Below, piece after piece: positions 8,378-15,314 of a DNA stretch of 56,407 bases (positions within the stretch are counted from its first letter, which is position 1; every line of letters begins with the position of its first letter). The stretch comes from a virus (taxonomy: Duplodnaviria > Caudoviricetes): positions 1 to 56,407 of the IMG/VR virus record IMGVR_UViG_3300034407_000510, one strand, 5' to 3'. The notes under the pieces are model-generated. The model was not told where the DNA came from. It made no database searches and worked only from the letters and a program-made list of their open reading frames with translations. A program made the translations under genes and the position numbers.

Positions 8378-8859
8378 ATTGCTTTGTCGTCTCTCATTTT
8401 ATTTTTTAGTGCTTCTATTTTATCTACTAACTCTTTTGCTTTTTCTCTAAATCCTTTAGATTTAGGATTTAGATTACCAAGTTTTTGTTCTGTTTTTATA
8501 ATTTCTTTTTTAATACTTGACATGTTTGAAATATCATAATCATCAAGACCATAAACATCTGGTCTGTTTTTAGTTTTTACTTCTTTAAGATTTTTACCCA
8601 TGTCCTTTTGCATTCTTGCAAAGATGTTATCAAACATTCCTTTCTGACCAACTTGTTGACCGCCCATAATACCTTTAGATGTATCAATGACATTGCCTTT
8701 CATATCAACAACTTTATTCATGTCTTTAAATCTTGACATTGCTTCTTGTTTGATTTTAATAAGATCAAGTCCTTTAGGTTCTATGCCTTTAACTTTTTGA
8801 TAACCTTTAACCAGTTGATTAAATATTTGTGGTAATGACATTCCAAATTTTATCATCAA
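7534..8859 (-). CDS. Modular putative virion-internal polyprotein with repeated AxGGR motifs and an internal Tat-like motif
   Basis: KAMGGRIGLKEG, LADGGRAAFKEG, LAEGGRIGYKDG, KKAGGGGIGY; KRRTFMKAAAGLASLLPFG. Confidence 0.65.
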   Translation of the reverse strand: MMIKFGMSLPQIFNQLVKGYQKVKGIEPKGLDLIKIKQEAMSRFKDMNKVVDMKGNVIDTSKGIMGGQQVGQKGMFDNIFARMQKDMGKNLKEVKTKNRPDVYGLDDYDISNMSSIKKEIIKTEQKLGNLNPKSKGFREKAKELVDKIEALKNKMRDDKAMGGRIGLKEGEGIMQMASAPDIMDERNSVMEMLSERYYGKPLKDLTDDEIIDLEEALEDLTGKKERSAPSITLADGGRAAFKEGLLAKMMSGVKPDGGLFKSIFANRNAPILSGFNTAELFDIVSNLSSLPGLAEGGRIGYKDGPKDPKRRTFMKAAAGLASLLPFGIGKGVKMAAPVVTKAAEISGPALAKIVDTVMSLGKLVSLKGKRVKEMVTKKKHEGVEVTEDIQDGSYIIKKGDKEIYYKPGRQDEMGIEDDIIEVIENRVKKAGGGGIGYMLGE

Positions 8860-10337
8860 TAATAATTCCTTTTAACGTTATTCTGTGGTTCATCCACATA
8901 ATCTTCAGGGTGTTGTATCAAACCACCTTGTCTGAATCGCATGATTGCTTGTGTGGTTGAGTCCACAAGGTCGTCATGATCGCCGTAGGGAAATGCTGCG
9001 CATTCTTCCATGACATCGTCTGCGAATTTCTGCTCCGGACACCATATCATACCAGATTCAAATAAAGGTGCAACAGAATTCACACGTGCGTGCTTGTCGT
9101 TTCCTTTTGATGGTGTGAAGTTTACAACAGGTATATCCATGTTCCTTAGTTCGTAAGTTAAGGGCAAACCACTAGCTTTTGCCTCAATAATCACTGATTC
9201 AGGTTGCCAGTATTTATATTGTTCTAATGCAAGACGACGTAACTCTGGAAACTCATAACGTCCTTTGACTGCATCAAGAAGCATTAAATTGGCTGGTTCG
9301 TCCTCTGATGGATAGAATACTCCCCATGTCGTTATCGCACTGTAGTCTGCAGTTTCTTTTTTTAAAAATGCTGTATCATAACTTTGTATGACATGATGTA
9401 GTGTTGGTATCCAATCGTTTGGCCATATCCTCCACCACTCACGTTTTAAGATTGCTCCTTCTTCTGCTGTTGGATTTTGCATCCACTGTGCATTCCATTT
9501 ACCCGTGGGCAGTGTTGCTTGTACCTTCTCAAGCTCATCTAGTTTCCAATACTCAGGCCAAACAGGTGCAGCGTCCTTTGATCCGTGGTCCAAGATTGCC
9601 GGAAATTCGACCACGTGCCATTGATCAGCTTTCGCTTCTTTTTGGTTTGCTAGTAATTTTCCTGTTAGATCTTTGTTAGACCAACGAGTCATAACCAATA
9701 CAATTTTACCACCAGGTTGCAAACGCTGACGTGGACCTGATGTATACCACTCATACGCTGACTCCATGGCTGTAGGTGACAATGCATCTTGCTCTGAGTG
9801 CGGGTCGTCAATGATTAATAAATCTGCACCACGTCCAGTGATCGCACCACCAACACCGGCGGCGAAGTATTCACCACCTTGTGATGTCTCCCAACGTCCT
9901 GCTGCTTTACTATCTTCTTGTAGGGTTGTTTTAAAAATTTTAGAATAATCTTCTGAGTCGATTAGGTTCTTTGCTTTACGACCAAACCTGACTGCGAGTT
10001 CACCCGTGTGGGTAGCTTGAATGATCTTGAGCCTTGGCTCACGGCCCACCATCCATGCTGGCAAAAGATAAGATGCAAATTCAGATTTTGTATGCCTAGG
10101 AGGCATATTAATGATCAATCGATTTATTTCACCTGATGCTAATTTATTAAATTTATCTGCAATGTGTCTGTGATGGGACCCCTCTACAAATTCTGGCCAC
10201 ACACATTTTACAAAACTTAGAAAGTCATCTTTAGCTTTGTTCTGTATCTTTTTTTCTGCATGCATGACCTTCAATCTTAAAAATTGTTTACGGACGTCTG
10301 CAGGCAGTTTGCTTATATCTACTGTATTCAAATTCAT
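8856..10337 (-). CDS. terL: Terminase large subunit
   Basis: Walker A-like MPPRHTKSE, Walker B LLIIDDPH, coupling motif VMTRW, RNase H-like SYDTA and HDDLVDSTTQA. Confidence 0.95.
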   Translation of the reverse strand: MNLNTVDISKLPADVRKQFLRLKVMHAEKKIQNKAKDDFLSFVKCVWPEFVEGSHHRHIADKFNKLASGEINRLIINMPPRHTKSEFASYLLPAWMVGREPRLKIIQATHTGELAVRFGRKAKNLIDSEDYSKIFKTTLQEDSKAAGRWETSQGGEYFAAGVGGAITGRGADLLIIDDPHSEQDALSPTAMESAYEWYTSGPRQRLQPGGKIVLVMTRWSNKDLTGKLLANQKEAKADQWHVVEFPAILDHGSKDAAPVWPEYWKLDELEKVQATLPTGKWNAQWMQNPTAEEGAILKREWWRIWPNDWIPTLHHVIQSYDTAFLKKETADYSAITTWGVFYPSEDEPANLMLLDAVKGRYEFPELRRLALEQYKYWQPESVIIEAKASGLPLTYELRNMDIPVVNFTPSKGNDKHARVNSVAPLFESGMIWCPEQKFADDVMEECAAFPYGDHDDLVDSTTQAIMRFRQGGLIQHPEDYVDEPQNNVKRNYY

Positions 10338-11526: not shown

Positions 11527-12489
11527 TTAATTTAAACTATTTTGTTGTTCTTGTAATAGTTGTTTTGCAATCGCAATCTTCTCATCACGAGTTTGTTCAA
11601 CCTCATCAGTTAAAAGATCAGCTAAATTACTCGGACTATAAATTGATAAAGCCATACTAGAATGTGCGTCTAATATACTTTCATTTAAAACTACACCAAG
11701 TTTATCAGCTAGTTCTTTTGCTTGGTCAAAGTATCTGTAAGATTTCAAACCAAGTTTTAGTTTTTCCATTTTTTTATTTACATGGTCAAATAAACATTGA
11801 TGATTTCTTACAACCTCTTGTTCAGCAGTTTTGAAAAGTTGAAAAAACTCAAACTCTGCAGAGTTGGTATCAAACTTTCTACTATGACAATATGATGTTC
11901 CAATTACCCAAAGTTTGAAATCATTTTCCCACTCATCTTTAGGAAACATTTGGGACTTGCTTACATCATTACGACTACCAAAACCCAAAAACTTATCAAC
12001 TTGACTTTCGGAATTATAATAAGTCGGATTTCTTTTTTCGTAGTTGTCGCCTAATCTAACATTGAAATCTGCGTCAATGCCTTTTGCTTTTATCTCATCA
12101 CGATAGTAAGAAGTTAGAAAGTCCTTATCCATGTCGCCAAACTTAATATGAACATCATCATAATATTCTTTTTTATTTCCATTATAATCAGTTTCATATT
12201 TTGGTGTAGAGTTTTGAATATAAAAACAATTATCATGGTAAAGATCGCCACCACTACTACCATACTTTTTAATCATAGAACGAATTGTATCTATATCTTC
12301 TTGTGGTTGATGATTTCTTACTAAAACTTCCATACGAATTTTTGCCTCTTTTCGTAAAGAGTTGTAAGTGTCTTTTGCTTGTTGCCATGATTTCTTAAAT
12401 TTTGAATTATCTTCAAAATGATTTTGAAATACATCAGCAATCACTTTTCGCTTATCTGCGTTAAGTGTTATTCTTTTTTGTTTTTCCAT
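11527..12489 (-). CDS. Unknown 320-aa early protein (start moved to MEKQKR); weak Nmad5-like resemblance
   Basis: GAAAGGA SD before the ATG at 12489; RITLNADKRKVI N-terminus and LKSYRYFDQAKEL C-terminus loosely recall Nmad5 (unverified). Confidence 0.7.
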   Translation of the reverse strand: MEKQKRITLNADKRKVIADVFQNHFEDNSKFKKSWQQAKDTYNSLRKEAKIRMEVLVRNHQPQEDIDTIRSMIKKYGSSGGDLYHDNCFYIQNSTPKYETDYNGNKKEYYDDVHIKFGDMDKDFLTSYYRDEIKAKGIDADFNVRLGDNYEKRNPTYYNSESQVDKFLGFGSRNDVSKSQMFPKDEWENDFKLWVIGTSYCHSRKFDTNSAEFEFFQLFKTAEQEVVRNHQCLFDHVNKKMEKLKLGLKSYRYFDQAKELADKLGVVLNESILDAHSSMALSIYSPSNLADLLTDEVEQTRDEKIAIAKQLLQEQQNSLN

Positions 12490-12514
12490 ATTTATATTTC
12501 CTTTCATAAAAATT

Positions 12515-12553
12515 GTTTTAGCACTTGACAATAGGATAGTCAAGGATTATATT
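12515..12553. promoter_or_regulatory. Overlapping divergent sigma70-like promoters
   Basis: Plus: TTGACA(12525)-17-TATATT(12548); minus: TTGACT(12543)-17-TAAAAC; CTTGAC-N9-GTCAAG palindrome. Confidence 0.75.
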
Positions 12554-12559
12554 GTATTT

Positions 12560-12970
12560 ATTCTATTAAGTTCAAAACTTACCTCTGATAGATACTGACC
12601 TCTTTTTGCTGTAGAACGGTCGTTAAACTTTGAAACAGTAGGGCAGATCCAGTGTCACACCACGCTCCTTGCGTCGTCTTCACTGGATACTGATCCCTGG
12701 TCTAATAAAGGTAGTTAACTGCGCAGACCGACTGTTAGACCTGGGATCAGTAGGTCTGCAGGAAATAGATATACATCCCTGCTGATCCCTGGTCCATTGC
12801 TAGTCAGGAATAATCCGCGGTGATGTGATGGACCAGGGATCAGTGAGCACTGGATACAGTGATAGGCCCTGGTGCACCGGTAAACAATTGCCGCTGGGCC
12901 TCAGCCTCACTGGTCCTGCATTGCGCCGGAGAGTAAGTTCAGCTATTGCTTTAGAACTGGTAAGGCGCAA
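12560..12970 (+). ncRNA. Candidate structured ncRNA / hairpin array
   Basis: No ORF of 60 aa or more; follows a near-consensus promoter; back-to-back hairpins, including two CTGATCCCTGGTC stems with compensatory changes and G-U extensions. Confidence 0.7.
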
Positions 12971-12993
12971 GCTGCAAGAAAGGAAAAAAATTT

Positions 12994-13176
12994 ATGAGTA
13001 GAAGACCCGGAAGAGGAATGCAAAAAGTTTACATTGGCCACCTGCGCTGGCTTCAGGACCAGGGCCCAAGCTACAAGCAGCAAGCGACAAGCTGCAAGCT
13101 TCAAGCCGCAAGCTTGACAAGGGACCTGTATTGTGTTATAGGATATTCAAGGAGAAAGAAATATGAAAGTAAATGA
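12994..13176 (+). CDS. Hypothetical protein spanning a heptamer array (doubtful)
   Basis: AAAGGA SD present, but the 3' half is made of CAAGCNN repeats and the gp88 promoter. Confidence 0.35.
   Translation: MSRRPGRGMQKVYIGHLRWLQDQGPSYKQQATSCKLQAASLTRDLYCVIGYSRRKKYESK
13067..13115 (+). repeat. Tandem heptamer array A, (CAAGCNN)x7
   Basis: CAAGC at 13067, 13074, 13081, 13088, 13095, 13102 and 13109; NN = TA, AG, GA, TG, TT, CG, TT. Confidence 0.95.
13114..13144 (+). promoter_or_regulatory. Sigma70-like promoter of gp88
   Basis: TTGACA(13114)-17-TATAGG, overlapping the TAGGAT motif; AAGGAG SD follows. Confidence 0.6.
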
Positions 13177-13762
13177 AGCATTAAAAATTACAGACAGCTT
13201 CACCAGAACAAGCAAGATGCCGGGCCTGAGTTACAGTCTTCCCGCGTGGGAATGCAAGACCGGCTGGAAGCTGTCACAGGTAGAGGGCACGCCCTGCTTT
13301 TTCTGTTACGCTAAGAAGGGCAACTATACCAGATACCCGGCAATCAAAGAAGCTCAATACAGGAGACTAAAAGCAATTAACCATCCGGACTGGGTCCAGG
13401 CCATGGCTACCGTGATCAAGCGCCAGAAGTTTTTTAGATGGCACGACGCCGGCGATGTACAGAGCCCTGAACATATGCAAAAAATTTTAGAGGTATGCAG
13501 GTTAACACCAGACACGAAGCACTGGCTGCCAACGCAAGAGCGGCAGTACCTGCCAGCACCTGAAGAGGTTCCAGCTAACCTGGTGATCCGGCTGTCACGT
13601 AGCAAGATAGACGGACCTGTGCCAGCTGCCTGGTCTCATGATTCAGGAGTCACGACTGGCGAAGCTCGAACCTGTCCAGCCCCGGACCAGGGCGGCAAGT
13701 GTTTAGATTGCAGAGCCTGCTGGAATAAAGAAATTAAAAGTGTTATATACGGCAAGCATTAA
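13163..13762 (+). CDS. Gp88-family protein (radical-SAM-like Fe-S protein)
   Basis: SKMPGLSYSLPA..C..CFFCYA, FRWHDAGD, NLVIRLS, CPA...CLDCRACW. Confidence 0.85.
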   Translation: MKVNEALKITDSFTRTSKMPGLSYSLPAWECKTGWKLSQVEGTPCFFCYAKKGNYTRYPAIKEAQYRRLKAINHPDWVQAMATVIKRQKFFRWHDAGDVQSPEHMQKILEVCRLTPDTKHWLPTQERQYLPAPEEVPANLVIRLSRSKIDGPVPAAWSHDSGVTTGEARTCPAPDQGGKCLDCRACWNKEIKSVIYGKH

Positions 13763-14046
13763 TGAGTTTTACATTTAAACATCCAAAGTATTATACAGAA
13801 TTACGTAAGCTGCGTAATAAATCGGATCAGGCCATTAGCTATGGGACGGCATCGACGGATGACGCTGGCGTGCGACCTGATCCGGGCCTCAAGCAATGTG
13901 ACTCTCAGGTGGTGAACCAGGTAAAGCTGTCATCACAGTCACAAGCTTCAAGCGCCAAGCTCACTAAGCAACAAGCGGCAAGCGTCAAGCCCCGTGGCAC
14001 AAGCATCAAGCTTCAAGCCGCAAGCGTCAAGCTCCATGATTCTTGA
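13762..14046 (+). CDS. Hypothetical protein coupled to gp88; C-terminal half is repeat-derived
   Basis: TAATG overlap supports the start; the rest reads through a hairpin and array B. Confidence 0.4.
   Translation: MSFTFKHPKYYTELRKLRNKSDQAISYGTASTDDAGVRPDPGLKQCDSQVVNQVKLSSQSQASSAKLTKQQAASVKPRGTSIKLQAASVKLHDS
13823..13884. other. Branched hairpin closed by CGGATCAGG/CCTGATCCG
   Basis: Perfect 9-bp closing stem with inner CCAT/ATGG and CATC/GATG helices. Confidence 0.6.
13942..14032 (+). repeat. Heptamer array B (11 CAAGC plus 1 TAAGC)
   Basis: CAAGC at 13942, 13949, 13956, 13972, 13979, 13986, 14000, 14007, 14014, 14021 and 14028; TAAGC at 13965. Confidence 0.95.
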
Positions 14047-14316
14047 ACCACGGAAAAGTTTCACGGTGCCTGGACCAAGGGCCTCTACCATAATAAAGGT
14101 GTTGTGTGGATGACGTGTGTGGAAGCTAATTTGGTGTGGTGAGAATCGTATTTTATTCCCTTTGCATACCTTCAATTCTATTGTGAAAAAGTGGCCAGAA
14201 GCATTGCAGACCAATAGATCAGGAGTCCCATGTAAGCTATTATTTTCAAGTCGTATAAGCGAAAATTTTTTAAACTTTCTTTTAATTTTTTCATAAAATT
14301 TCTGTTCTGGTTTCAA
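13948..14316 (-). CDS. PD-(D/E)xK nuclease, VRR-NUC / Holliday junction resolvase-like
   Basis: E...RLEN...GTPDLL...TIELK...SPHQISFH. Confidence 0.8.
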   Translation of the reverse strand: MKPEQKFYEKIKRKFKKFSLIRLENNSLHGTPDLLVCNASGHFFTIELKVCKGNKIRFSPHQISFHTRHPHNTFIMVEALGPGTVKLFRGSRIMELDACGLKLDACATGLDACRLLLSELGA

Positions 14317-14322
14317 GGGAAC

Positions 14323-14562
14323 TTAGTAGTCCTTTTGAAGCTTCTCAGGTAAGATAAGACTTGATGCTTTTTGAGTTTTAAGAACTAATCTGTGTGCACT
14401 ATGACCAGGTTGACCTATGATAGGATGAACATTCTCATGTACTTCCATACGTCTAATGGCATGTAACTTACCATTAATCTCTACAAAGATAACTGCGTTC
14501 TTGACTGCATCAGACCCTTCAGTAAAGGAACCTAAAAATTGTTGTAAGTCCTGTACTCTCAT
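14323..14562 (-). CDS. Hypothetical protein (79 aa)
   Basis: ATGA coupling with the upstream gene. Confidence 0.7.
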   Translation of the reverse strand: MRVQDLQQFLGSFTEGSDAVKNAVIFVEINGKLHAIRRMEVHENVHPIIGQPGHSAHRLVLKTQKASSLILPEKLQKDY

Positions 14563-14753: not shown

Positions 14754-14787
14754 TTGACTTTATAGGATAGTTCCCTTAAAAAGTCAA
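14754..14787. promoter_or_regulatory. Overlapping divergent promoters for terS and the 63-aa ORF
   Basis: TTGACTTT...AAAGTCAA inverted repeat; plus TTGACT-17-TAAAAA, minus TTGACT-17-TATAAA. Confidence 0.65.
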
Positions 14788-14789
14788 CT

Positions 14790-15314
14790 ATGGGAGTTCC
14801 AAAAAGATTAACAGAAATGCAACAGCGCTTCGCTGAGTTCTTGGTATTCGGTGGACCCGAAGGACCAATGACTAAACGTGAAGCAGCTATAGCTGCAGGT
14901 TACAGTAAAGATAGAGCTATGAGAGAAGGATCAGAGTTAACTAATCCCAAATACTCTCCACTTGTTGTCAAGTATATCGGTGAACTGAAAGAAGAAAGAT
15001 TACGTAAACACGAAGTAACTTACGAAGGTCACATTGCAGAACTTGCTAGACTACGTGAAGCCGCTTTGAAAAAAGGATCATTCTCTTCAGCAGTGAACGC
15101 GGAAGCAAACAGAGGAAAAGCAGCAGGATTATACATAGATAGGAAAATAATAAAAACAGGAAAACTAGAGGACATGTCAGAACAAGAGCTAGAAGCAAAA
15201 ATGAAACAGATCTTAGACGATTACTCACAGATAATTGATGTGACTCCATCTGCTATAACTTCTGAATCTTCTTCACCCAATGACGAGGAATCATCGTCCG
15301 ATCCCCAAAAGTAA
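14790..15314 (+). CDS. terS: Terminase small subunit
   Basis: LTEMQQRFAE...AAIAAGYSKDRAMREGSEL HTH, AEANRGKAAGLY, LEDMSEQEL. Confidence 0.85.
   Translation: MGVPKRLTEMQQRFAEFLVFGGPEGPMTKREAAIAAGYSKDRAMREGSELTNPKYSPLVVKYIGELKEERLRKHEVTYEGHIAELARLREAALKKGSFSSAVNAEANRGKAAGLYIDRKIIKTGKLEDMSEQELEAKMKQILDDYSQIIDVTPSAITSESSSPNDEESSSDPQK

What the first reader, a model, noticed from the sequence alone, without database searches (positions are those of the whole stretch)
12560..12970. Promoter-driven hairpin array with conserved, covarying stems and unique 26-30 nt loops: candidate phage guide or regulatory RNA system
Seen: about 410 nt with no long ORF, starting just after TTGACA-17-TATATT and tiled by adjacent hairpins. 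They are TACTG/CAGTA (12593-12640), ATCCAGTG/CACTGGAT (12647-12688, 26-nt loop), TACTGATCCCTGGTCTAA/TTAGACCTGGGATCAGTA (12688-12752, 29-nt loop), CTGATCCCTGGTCCAT/ATGGACCAGGGATCAG (12782-12843, 30-nt loop), CACTG-GATA-CAGTG, AGGCCC/GGGCCT (12864-12901) and TTGCGCC/GGCGCAA (12921-12970). The two long stems are copies of each other that differ by two compensatory pairs (GGTCTAA/TTAGACC versus GGTCCAT/ATGGACC), while their loops are unrelated. CTGA recurs at 12595, 12690 and 12782 (period about 92-95 nt). G-U extensions favour a plus-strand RNA. Inference: a fixed handle with a variable payload suggests processed guide, antisense or decoy RNAs. It is not CRISPR and there is no recognisable Nop-domain (TIGR-Tas) protein. 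Candidate partners are the divergently transcribed 320-aa unknown and the downstream Gp88 protein.
Basis: partly seen in the sequence, partly recalled or inferred. Interest (0 to 1): 0.88.

Follow-up and report, generated by a model that had tools for sequence, protein, structure and literature searches.

The report
Modular structured RNA of pelagiphages
This is a real, previously uncatalogued, multi-hairpin non-coding RNA that sits just upstream of an early gene in a very abundant group of ocean phages; what it does is still unknown.

Summary
The hairpins are real. Window 12560-12990 folds far better than shuffles (z -7.4 on the plus strand). It lies after a near-consensus promoter (12525-12553).

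Comparison with more than 100 related viral contigs shows a chain of modules on the plus strand:
- an H-type pseudoknot (12596-12643);
- hairpin A (12647-12688), with covarying stems around a fixed internal loop;
- two copies of hairpin B (12688-12752, 12780-12845), with a conserved 13-bp base, a conserved U.U mismatch and unrelated tips;
- modules C (12843-12910) and D (12921-12970).

Covariation is strong. Wobble pairs favour plus-strand RNA: 54 G.U against 2 A.C in A.

The RNA always occupies the slot between a 320-aa unknown gene and gp88 in HTVC023P-type pelagiphages. It matches no Rfam family. In 5 of 45 sources scanned, the known Flavobacterium-1 RNA shares the slot.

The "array" is a local duplication. 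Of 42 relatives, 22 carry one B, 12 none, 5 two and 3 three.

A guide-RNA reading is not supported. The constant-base, hypervariable-tip pattern is nevertheless real. The best reading is a new modular phage ncRNA or leader recognised by proteins. Its function is inferred, not shown.

The parts
12525..12553 (+). Promoter P1: TTGACA, 17-nt spacer, TATATT. Its -35 box lies in an imperfect palindrome shared with the divergent p320 promoter.
   Evidence: 11 of 12 positions match. The same promoter is conserved in relatives.
12596..12643 (+). Module P0: H-type pseudoknot. S1 is 12596-12600 with 12618-12622. S2 is 12604-12612 with 12635-12643. Loop 3 is A-rich.
   Evidence: pseudoknots of at least 14 bp occur in 30 of 89 distinct upstream segments, against 6 of 445 shuffles. 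There are 24 distinct S1 and 26 distinct S2 pairings. The U.G pairs in S2 work only on the plus strand.
12647..12688 (+). Module A: 8-bp outer stem, internal loop UCACACC / CGUCUU, 4-bp inner stem, variable tip.
   Evidence: The covariance model scores 65.1 bits at 12643-12692 and this is the only hit in the window. Across 78 sequences, 97.3% of cells are paired and 12 of 12 pairs show compensatory changes.
12688..12752 (+). Module B, copy 1: conserved base CUGAUCCCUGGUC / GACCUGGGAUCAG with a U.U mismatch, and a unique tip.
   Evidence: The U.U mismatch is present in 54 of 65 relatives.
12753..12779 (+). Spacer between the B copies. Together with B1 it forms a 92-nt unit that is absent from a natural variant.
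   Evidence: a contig of run X15 joins 12687 to 12780; direct repeat with 92-nt spacing.
12780..12845 (+). Module B, copy 2: the same base, perfectly paired, with a different tip.
   Evidence: 16 nt, 100% complementary. The same tip is seen in L103.
12843..12910 (+). Module C: closing stem GUGAG/CUCAC, hairpin CACUG-GAUA-CAGUG, and AGGCCC...GGGCCU around an inner hairpin.
   Evidence: found in 14 distinct contexts in relatives. The small hairpin covaries (CACUG, CACCG, CAGGU, CGCUG). In some relatives the module sits inside a B tip.
12921..12970 (+). Module D: stem UUGCGCC/GGCGCAA around a sequence that recurs in relatives.
   Evidence: The inner sequence is also seen in a B tip of L117 and after module C in L017.
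13067..13113 (+). Array of seven CAAGCNN heptamers that ends in phase with the next promoter.
   Evidence: 14 matches against 0.12 expected..
13114..13142 (+). Promoter-like site P2 in front of gp88: TTGACA, 17-nt spacer, TATAGG, with TG upstream.
   Evidence: Read by eye. The same layout is present in HTVC027P. The consensus scan did not list it.
13163..13762 (+). gp88: a GP88-family protein with a predicted radical-SAM-like fold.
   Evidence: PF17338, E 1.1e-31..
11527..12489 (-). p320: the divergent 320-aa protein of unknown function (start taken at the ATG at 12489).

Best explanation
Window 12560-12990 encodes a plus-strand, promoter-driven, modular structured RNA. The modules run in the order pseudoknot P0, hairpin A, hairpin B twice, module C, module D. 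It belongs to a new RNA family that fills one fixed slot in HTVC023P-type pelagiphages, between the divergent p320 gene and the gp88 gene.

Shown here: the structure, the strand, the conservation, the synteny and the modular make-up.

Inferred: the RNA is made from P1 as a non-coding RNA, or as a long leader of the gp88 unit. HTVC027P transcript data place that unit in the early-to-middle part of infection. Its fixed elements are the A internal loop (UCACACC/CGUCUU) and the 13-bp B base with its U.U mismatch. I take these to be recognition sites for a protein. Candidates are a host double-strand RNA enzyme such as RNase III, or a phage factor. The hairpin tips are free to vary and are swapped by recombination at the conserved bases.

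The two B hairpins in this phage are a 92-nt duplication or insertion, not a guide array.
For: - Fold z is -7.37 on the plus strand.
- Hairpin A: 97.3% of cells paired, 12 of 12 pairs with compensatory changes, covariation score 0.855 against 0.25 in shuffles and at most 0.15 when the partner columns are slid.
- Hairpin B: 99.5% of cells paired, 7 of 16 pairs compensatory.
- Plus-strand wobble pairs: 54 against 2 in A and 47 against 4 in B.
- In the 42 intergenic regions found through the p320 protein, the exact A loops occur in 28, always on the plus strand. The one divergent copy, in L031, changes C-G to U-A inside the loop.
- The motif lies upstream of gp88 on the same strand.
- No intrinsic terminator was found in 12300-14400.
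- In HTVC027P, gp33 (Gp88) and gp34 form their own temporal cluster, high at 6-9 h after infection (PMC12753301, passages read).
- Contigs from four RNA libraries cover the region.
- A known sRNA family, Flavobacterium-1, sits in the same slot and strand in 5 of 45 sources.
- L060 is 96% identical to the window over 12490-12702 yet carries a different B tip.
Against: - No transcript ends, processing sites or binding partners were observed. The RNA-library data are contigs and may include DNA.
- A and B are not universal. Of the 42 syntenic regions, 14 lack the exact A-loop pattern; one of those, L031, has a divergent A, so 13 lack A altogether. 12 lack B and 5 lack both. Whatever A and B do is dispensable or replaceable.
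- All instances come from one phage lineage in one synteny, so the link to gp88 could be inheritance alone.
- The invariance of the A loops in the larger set is partly built in, because the search pattern required them.
- A sequence-conserved stem could also reflect a DNA-level role.
Confidence: 0.55

Rival explanations
1. A cis-regulatory leader of the riboswitch kind. P0 (H-type pseudoknot with an A-rich loop 3) and/or A (fixed internal loop between covarying stems) would bind a small molecule and tune read-through or translation of the downstream gp88 unit.
For: - A has the usual aptamer look: invariant loop nucleotides, covarying stems and a variable tip.
- The architecture of P0 recalls preQ1-I and SAM-II/V pseudoknots (comparison from memory; pseudoknot statistics).
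- Gp88 is predicted to be QueE-like radical SAM (Z 5.5, rmsd 4.1 over 135 residues) with invariant Cys31, Cys45 and Cys48.
- No terminator separates the RNA from gp88.
Against: - No Rfam riboswitch family matches, even at E up to 10.
- gp88 has its own promoter-like site P2 directly upstream.
- The distance from the motif to gp88 varies from 150 to 1270 nt, and in some relatives ORFs lie in between.
- No expression platform was found.
- A and P0 are missing in many relatives that keep gp88.
Confidence: 0.15
2. The B hairpins are a fixed scaffold that displays hypervariable RNA payloads acting in trans as guides, antisense RNAs or decoys. They would be processed out of the precursor and exchanged between co-infecting phages.
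For: - The handle is constant while tips are extremely diverse: about 119 distinct tips in about 100 clusters, mostly singletons (the call counted 238 and 201 over both strands).
- Tips are swapped within otherwise 96%-identical flanks.
- Copy number runs from 0 to 3.
- The region is an early-expressed accessory slot.
Against: - Tip length is not fixed: 20-205 nt, median 48.
- Stems extend past the handle with covariation.
- Tips are only mildly structured (z -1.05), which looks like free variation rather than fixed-length guides.
- The window's loops have no 12-mer match elsewhere in the phage.
- No effector was recognised among the neighbouring genes scanned: Pfam on 9, PADLOC on 5, NCBIfam on 4.
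- Host genomes could not be searched for targets.
Confidence: 0.13
3. A DNA-level element. The inverted repeats and the heptamer arrays would mark a replication origin, a packaging site or a genome end, or act as hairpins for single-strand DNA transactions. On this reading the RNA folding is incidental.
For: - The region lies near the terminase genes (TerS at 14790-15314, TerL at 8856-10337).
- Gp88 homologues in other cultured phages sit at record ends or in terminal repeats.
- Heptamer arrays flank gp88. From memory, this recalls the heptamer arrays beside the T7 terminal repeat.
- The B stem is conserved in sequence.
Against: - The excess of G.U over A.C in A, B and P0 points to a single-stranded plus-strand molecule made of RNA.
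- The U.U mismatch keeps CCUGG on both arms, which a duplex DNA site would not require.
- The pseudoknot and the internal-loop conservation are RNA-like.
- The spacing between the arms varies widely.
Confidence: 0.08
4. Selfish or neutral palindromic repeats (MITE- or REP-like) that pile up in a tolerant intergenic region and have no function for the phage.
For: - Copy number is variable and the content is mosaic.
- The conserved ends resemble terminal inverted repeats.
Against: - Every instance lies in one slot and one orientation.
- No further full copies occur elsewhere in the 56-kb phage.
- Compensatory changes keep the stems intact across distant relatives.
- No transposase was recognised among the neighbouring genes scanned against Pfam and PHROGs.
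Confidence: 0.04

Closest known systems
Flavobacterium-1 RNA (Rfam RF02976, candidate sRNA of unknown function)
   Same: It occupies the same intergenic slot on the same strand, downstream of the A/B hairpins and upstream of gp88. This holds in HTVC027P (L002 3344-3464, 90.2 bits) and in L089, L108, L125 and L133 (91-115 bits). It is a structured, promoter-distal, non-coding module.
   Different: The window has no Flavobacterium-1 match. P0, A, B, C and D do not match its model. It is a neighbour in the slot, not a homologue.
Large phage-associated structured RNAs of unknown function (GOLLD, ROOL)
   Same: They are multi-domain, GC-rich relative to their surroundings, carried by phages and of unknown function (general knowledge; the Weinberg 2017 passage on ROOL was read).
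   Different: No Rfam match to either. This RNA is smaller (about 400 nt) and mosaic. It is linked to gp88 rather than to tRNA genes.
RNase III processing hairpins of the phage T7 early leader
   Same: Long imperfect hairpins with a conserved stem and an internal mismatch, lying downstream of strong host-type promoters and ahead of an early gene (comparison from memory).
   Different: No cleavage data exist for this RNA. The B hairpins occur only in this one slot, not between genes across the genome. Their stem sequence is much more conserved than RNase III is known to require.
H-type pseudoknot riboswitches (preQ1-I, SAM-II, SAM-V)
   Same: P0 has two interleaved covarying stems, a U-rich loop 1 and an A-rich loop 3. 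SAM-V is known from Pelagibacter (recalled).
   Different: No Rfam hit at E up to 10. S2 is 9-10 bp, much longer than in preQ1-I. Ligand binding is untested.
CRISPR and TIGR guide arrays
   Same: Repeated conserved sequence flanks unrelated short inserts, and the region is transcribed from an upstream promoter.
   Different: The repeats are inverted and form the stem of one hairpin. Insert length is not fixed. The usual copy number is one. No Cas or Nop-domain protein was found in the neighbouring proteins scanned.

Membership tests
Any Rfam 15 family | Score at or above the family's gathering threshold | tested here: not met
   0 matches in the whole window; the best hit in 12400-13250 is mir-378 at 23.2 bits against a gathering score of 80, a chance-level match to hairpin shape.
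Flavobacterium-1 RNA (RF02976) | Covariance-model match of at least 58.9 bits | tested here: not met
   The window has none. Relatives L002, L089, L108, L125 and L133 do, in the same slot.
CRISPR array | Direct repeats of fixed length separated by unique spacers of near-constant length | tested here: not met
   the conserved 13-mers are arranged as inverted pairs that form hairpins. The only direct repeat is the single 92-nt duplication.
CRISPR array | Cas genes nearby | tested here: inconclusive
   Pfam on 9 and PADLOC on 5 neighbouring proteins found none. The remaining genes of the window were not scanned.
TIGR-Tas | Nop-domain Tas protein next to the array | tested here: inconclusive
   No Nop domain in the 9 neighbouring proteins scanned against Pfam. 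The remaining genes were not scanned.
Retron msr-msd or DGR template | Reverse transcriptase gene in the element | tested here: not met
   no RVT_1 match in six frames of the 56.4-kb record, while the control genomes did give matches.
Integron attC site | Core sites R'' (RYYYAAC) and R' (GTTRRRY) at the ends of an imperfect palindrome that follows a gene cassette | tested here: not met
   The arms read CTGATCCCTGGTC / GACCWGGGATCAG. No cassette ORFs lie between the hairpins. The core-site consensus is quoted from memory.
preQ1-I, SAM-II or SAM-V riboswitch | Match to the family model; ligand binding | tested here: not met
   No model match at E up to 10. Ligand binding cannot be tested with these tools.
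RNase III substrate hairpin | Cleavage by RNase III within a stem of about 20 bp | not testable with these tools
   The stems are 17-21 bp with one mismatch, which is compatible, but there are no cleavage data.
tRNA or tmRNA | ARAGORN detection | tested here: not met
   0 genes in the window.

The most novel reading that the evidence does not exclude
The slot between p320 and gp88 is an 'RNA accessory island'. On this reading, abundant ocean phages use one conserved hairpin base (with its U.U mismatch) as a universal adaptor. Through it they load, display and exchange hypervariable RNA payloads and other RNA modules (pseudoknots, A, C, Flavobacterium-1). These would act as decoys, antisense RNAs or protein sponges in the arms race with SAR11 or with competing phages. 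The conserved base would serve both as a processing signal and as the crossover point for cassette swapping.
Probability: 0.15. Interest if true: 0.85.

Novelty: new variant of a known kind. Interest (0 to 1): 0.62.

Why it matters
HTVC023P-type pelagiphages infect SAR11 and are among the most abundant viruses in the sea (stated in the papers listed). Almost nothing is known about how they regulate their genes, and most of their genes have no assigned function.

This work defines a new RNA family with strong covariation support, built from at least five recurring modules. It sits at the head of a distinct early-to-middle transcription unit. It gives concrete elements to test:
- the fixed internal loop of hairpin A;
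- the conserved U.U mismatch in the B base;
- the P0 pseudoknot;
- the heptamer arrays fused to promoters.

It also places the orphan Rfam family Flavobacterium-1 in a defined phage context. If the hypervariable tips prove functional, this would be an RNA-level counterpart of protein accessory islands.

Tried and rejected
- Rfam: gathering thresholds on the window and E up to 10 on 12400-13250 gave only chance-level miRNA-like hits.
- tRNA/tmRNA scan: none.
- Cellular genomes: the A+B pattern gave at least 120 matches in varied taxa. By my own arithmetic about 400 would be expected by chance. 0 of the 100 I tested (of 120 loci fetched) passed the A covariance model at E up to 0.01. I treat all of them as chance. 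The last 20 were not tested.
- Viral pattern matches: 8 of 86 unique sequences had no stems (L109, L110, L119, L136, L148, L162, L178, L181). They were dropped before the alignments.
- Distant gp88 phages: the A model found nothing in Roseobacter phage CRP-171, Caulobacter phage Seuss, Acinetobacter phage AM24 or HTVC027P.
- p320 fold: pLDDT 77. The best structural matches were Z 4.9 to coiled-coil proteins, which is uninformative. The protein atlas gave nothing.
- Gp88: Foldseek against the PDB gave nothing at E up to 0.001. A profile search of PDB sequences gave nothing. NCBIfam and PADLOC gave nothing. PF17338 appears in no paper of the library searched.
- A pairing partner for UCACACC: the 7-mer complement occurs in only 2 of 112 contexts.
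- Targets of the window's loops inside the phage: no 12-mer match. Host genomes were not searched.
- RNA-library contigs: in run X15 there is no cover over 12342-12554, and cover begins in the 12555-12625 bin. This would fit a start at P1, but gaps in contig cover prove nothing and the libraries may hold DNA.
- A MAFFT alignment of P0 (A5) put several rows out of structural register. I therefore counted pseudoknots with a script rather than with the column-based tool.
- Papers: searches for 'pelagiphage' plus 'noncoding RNA', for HTVC027P, and for Flavobacterium-1 plus 'motif' and 'structured RNA', and term searches in PMC9599517, the 2019 bioRxiv preprint and PMC5737381, found no description of this RNA. 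Supplements were closed. The Weinberg 2017 supplement may describe Flavobacterium-1 contexts.

Full report
**What is in the sequence.** Window 12560-12990 lies between two divergent genes. One is a 320-aa ORF of unknown function on the minus strand (11527-12489). The other is a GP88-family gene on the plus strand (13163-13762; PF17338, E 1.1e-31). A near-consensus sigma-70-type promoter, TTGACA-17-TATATT, sits at 12525-12553.

The 431 nt fold to -167.9 kcal/mol on the plus strand, against -127.1 +/- 5.5 for 100 shuffles (z -7.37). The minus strand gives z -5.81. The 13-mer CTGATCCCTGGTC, allowing up to 2 mismatches, occurs 7 times in the window against 0.76 expected. Four of the 7 form the two long hairpins. 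The region holds no tRNA or tmRNA gene and no Rfam family.

**Where the window comes from.** The record is a 56.4-kb viral contig. Its nearest named relative is Pelagibacter phage HTVC027P.

- A search with the 320-aa protein fetched 72 related viral loci.
- With the window's own locus and the HTVC027P locus, 42 loci hold both the 320-aa gene and gp88. The intergenic region between them is 452-1701 nt long and mosaic.
- Of 86 unique sequences, 8 had no stems and were dropped as chance matches.
- The rest lie in one synteny: p320 on the opposite strand, then the RNA, then gp88 on the same strand 150-1270 nt downstream. A resolvase-like gene and the small terminase subunit follow.
- Counted over 116 distinct contexts, gp88 was present in 92 and p320 in 69. 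Many loci are cut by contig ends.
- Pattern matches in cellular genomes are chance. 0 of the 100 I tested passed the covariance model.

**The modules.**

*Hairpin A (12647-12688).* It has an 8-bp outer stem, an internal loop UCACACC / CGUCUU, a 4-bp inner stem and a variable tip.
- On 78 distinct sequences, 97.3% of cells are paired and all 12 pairs show changes on both sides. The covariation score is 0.855, against 0.25 for shuffles and at most 0.15 for slid partners.
- The loop letters were part of the search pattern, so their invariance in that set is built in.
- In the 42 regions found through the protein alone, 28 carry exactly these loops, always on the plus strand.
- The only divergent copy found by the covariance model (L031) changes UCACAC to UCACAU and GUCUU to AUCUU. 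This is a compensatory C-G to U-A change inside the loop.

*Hairpin B.* It has the base CUGAUCCCUGGUC / GACCUGGGAUCAG.
- On 65 sequences, 99.5% of cells are paired. Positions 11-17 covary.
- Position 9 is a U.U mismatch in 54 of 65 sequences. CCUGG is therefore kept on both arms of the RNA.

Relatives show two interleaved covarying stems, that is an H-type pseudoknot.
- In the window, S1 is 12596-12600 with 12618-12622 and S2 is 12604-12612 with 12635-12643.
- Pseudoknots of at least 14 bp occur in 30 of 89 distinct upstream segments, against 6 of 445 shuffles. There are 24 different S1 and 26 different S2 pairings.

*Modules C and D.* Module C (12843-12910), with its CACUG-GAUA-CAGUG hairpin, recurs in 14 distinct contexts with covariation. 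In some relatives it sits inside the tip of a B hairpin. The core of module D (12921-12970) likewise recurs in other closing stems.

**Strand and molecule.** G.U pairs outnumber A.C pairs 54 to 2 in A and 47 to 4 at positions 2-17 of B. S2 of the pseudoknot relies on U.G pairs. These features, together with the pseudoknot and the conserved U.U mismatch, point to a single-stranded plus-strand RNA rather than a duplex DNA site.

**Is it an array of guides?** The two B hairpins of the window are one 92-nt unit apart.
- A contig from an RNA library joins 12687 directly to 12780. It is a natural variant that lacks exactly that unit.
- Among the 42 syntenic regions, B occurs 0 times in 12, once in 22, twice in 5 and three times in 3.
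- The tips are very diverse. The call counted 238 distinct tips and 201 clusters over both strands, so about 119 and about 100, mostly singletons. Lengths run from 20 to 205 nt.
- Tips are exchanged as blocks. L060 is 96% identical to the window over 12490-12702 but carries another tip.
- The tips are only mildly structured (mean z -1.05). The ends pair in 43 of 87.
- The window's loops have no 12-mer match elsewhere in the phage.
- No reverse transcriptase was found in a six-frame search of the record. No Cas or Nop-domain protein turned up among the neighbouring proteins scanned.

The guide-array inference has no support yet.

**The neighbours.**
- Gp88 models with high confidence (pLDDT 92.4). 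Its best structural matches are radical-SAM enzymes: QueE at Z 5.5 (rmsd 4.1 over 135 residues), and spore photoproduct lyase and PFL-activating enzyme at Z 5.2. These scores are middling, and chitinase-like barrels score similarly.
- Cys31, Cys45 and Cys48 (CX13CX2C) and four C-terminal cysteines are invariant in 41 homologues. I read Gp88 as a probable small radical-SAM-like enzyme. This is an inference.
- In other cultured phages, Gp88 homologues sit at record ends or within terminal repeats. Examples are Roseobacter phage CRP-4 at 10-660, CRP-171, CRP-113 and CRP-125 as the last gene, and Streptomyces phages with two places per record.
- Those phages lack the RNA.
- p320 gave no informative fold or family.
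- Gp88 is kept in relatives that lack A, B or both. The RNA is therefore not an obligatory partner of Gp88.

**Expression.**
- In HTVC027P, gp33 (the Gp88 homologue) and gp34 (a small ORF inside the intergenic region) form their own temporal cluster, high at 6-9 h after infection (PMC12753301, passages read).
- Contigs from four metatranscriptome libraries cover the hairpin region and gp88. Contigs cannot prove transcription, strand or ends.
- No intrinsic terminator was found between the promoter and the end of gp88.

**The slot.**
- The Rfam family Flavobacterium-1 (RF02976, a candidate sRNA) lies in the same slot and on the same strand in HTVC027P and four metagenomic relatives. That is 5 of 45 sources scanned, counting the window.
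- Some relatives instead have other hairpins or small ORFs in the slot.
- Across about 130 loci, the stretch from the motif to about 1.3 kb downstream has 45-51% G+C against 33-37% on either side (the window itself).
- The slot is thus a compositionally distinct, plus-strand island in a genome that is otherwise transcribed almost wholly on the minus strand.

**Most likely working.**
- Shown: a conserved, modular, plus-strand structured RNA at a fixed place.
- Inferred: it is transcribed from P1 as an ncRNA or long leader of the early-to-middle gp88 unit. The fixed A loop and the B base with its U.U mismatch are protein recognition or processing sites. The tips vary freely and are swapped by recombination at the conserved bases.
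- I put 0.55 on this general reading. The rivals are a ligand-sensing leader at 0.15, trans-acting payloads at 0.13, a DNA-level role at 0.08 and selfish repeats at 0.04.

**Comparison with known systems.** This RNA is a member of no Rfam family. It works most like other phage-borne multi-domain RNAs of unknown function, and possibly like the RNase III hairpins of phage early leaders. That second comparison is from memory. It fails the tested defining features of CRISPR arrays (direct repeats), retrons and DGRs, integron attC sites and the pseudoknot riboswitch families. The Cas-gene and TIGR-Tas tests were inconclusive.

**Verdict.** This is a new RNA family in an ecologically dominant phage group. 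Its structure is well supported and its function is open.

Noticed in passing
window 13067-13113 and 13942-14032: Arrays of the heptamer CAAGCNN flank gp88 (14 matches of CAAGCNNCAAGC against 0.12 expected). In relatives, 82 of 294 distinct arrays run straight into TTGACA, 57 of them in phase as CAAGCTTGACA. Only 140 of 20000 random 16-nt windows contain TTGACA. HTVC027P has such an array before each of two promoters. They could be Rho-type terminators or insulators that close one unit before the next promoter, or regulator sites. Neither idea was tested.
   Followed up: partly
window 12600-14100: A plus-strand island with about 50% G+C in a genome of about 30-37% G+C that is otherwise almost all minus-strand. 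The same rise is seen across about 130 related loci.
   Followed up: partly
window 13163-13762: Gp88 (PF17338) is predicted to be a small radical-SAM-like barrel, with QueE as the best match at Z 5.5. Cys31, Cys45 and Cys48 and four C-terminal cysteines are invariant. Its homologues sit at genome ends or in terminal repeats in Roseobacter, Streptomyces and Acinetobacter phages.
   Followed up: partly
L002 3344-3464 (HTVC027P); L089 2251-2372; L108 3298-3419; L125 1731-1851; L133 1799-1920: The orphan Rfam family Flavobacterium-1 (RF02976) occurs in pelagiphages, always between the hairpins and gp88.
   Followed up: partly
window 12525-12543: The -35 box of P1 lies in the imperfect palindrome TTGACAATAGGATAGTCAA. 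In some relatives it is perfect (ACTTGACAATAGGATTGTCAAGT). It looks like overlapping divergent -35 boxes or an operator shared by P1 and the p320 promoter.
   Followed up: no
window 12994-13176 and 13762-14046: Two small ORFs are doubtful genes. The 60-aa ORF runs across the heptamer array and promoter P2. The last third of the 94-aa ORF is encoded by heptamer repeats, which gives a 7-residue periodic peptide.
   Followed up: no
window 11499, 13137, 14761: TATAGGATA occurs three times on the plus strand, against 0.51 expected. The copy at 13137 is the -10-like box before gp88. The copy at 14761 lies just before the small terminase gene (14790). It may be a shared promoter element of the few plus-strand genes.
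   Followed up: no
L012, L020, L038, L043, L045 intergenic regions: Another recurring hairpin, around TTTAGAATGATTCTAA, fills the slot in relatives that lack B.
   Followed up: no
window 12688-12779: A contig from an RNA library (run X15) joins 12687 to 12780. It is a natural variant with one B hairpin instead of two.
   Followed up: partly
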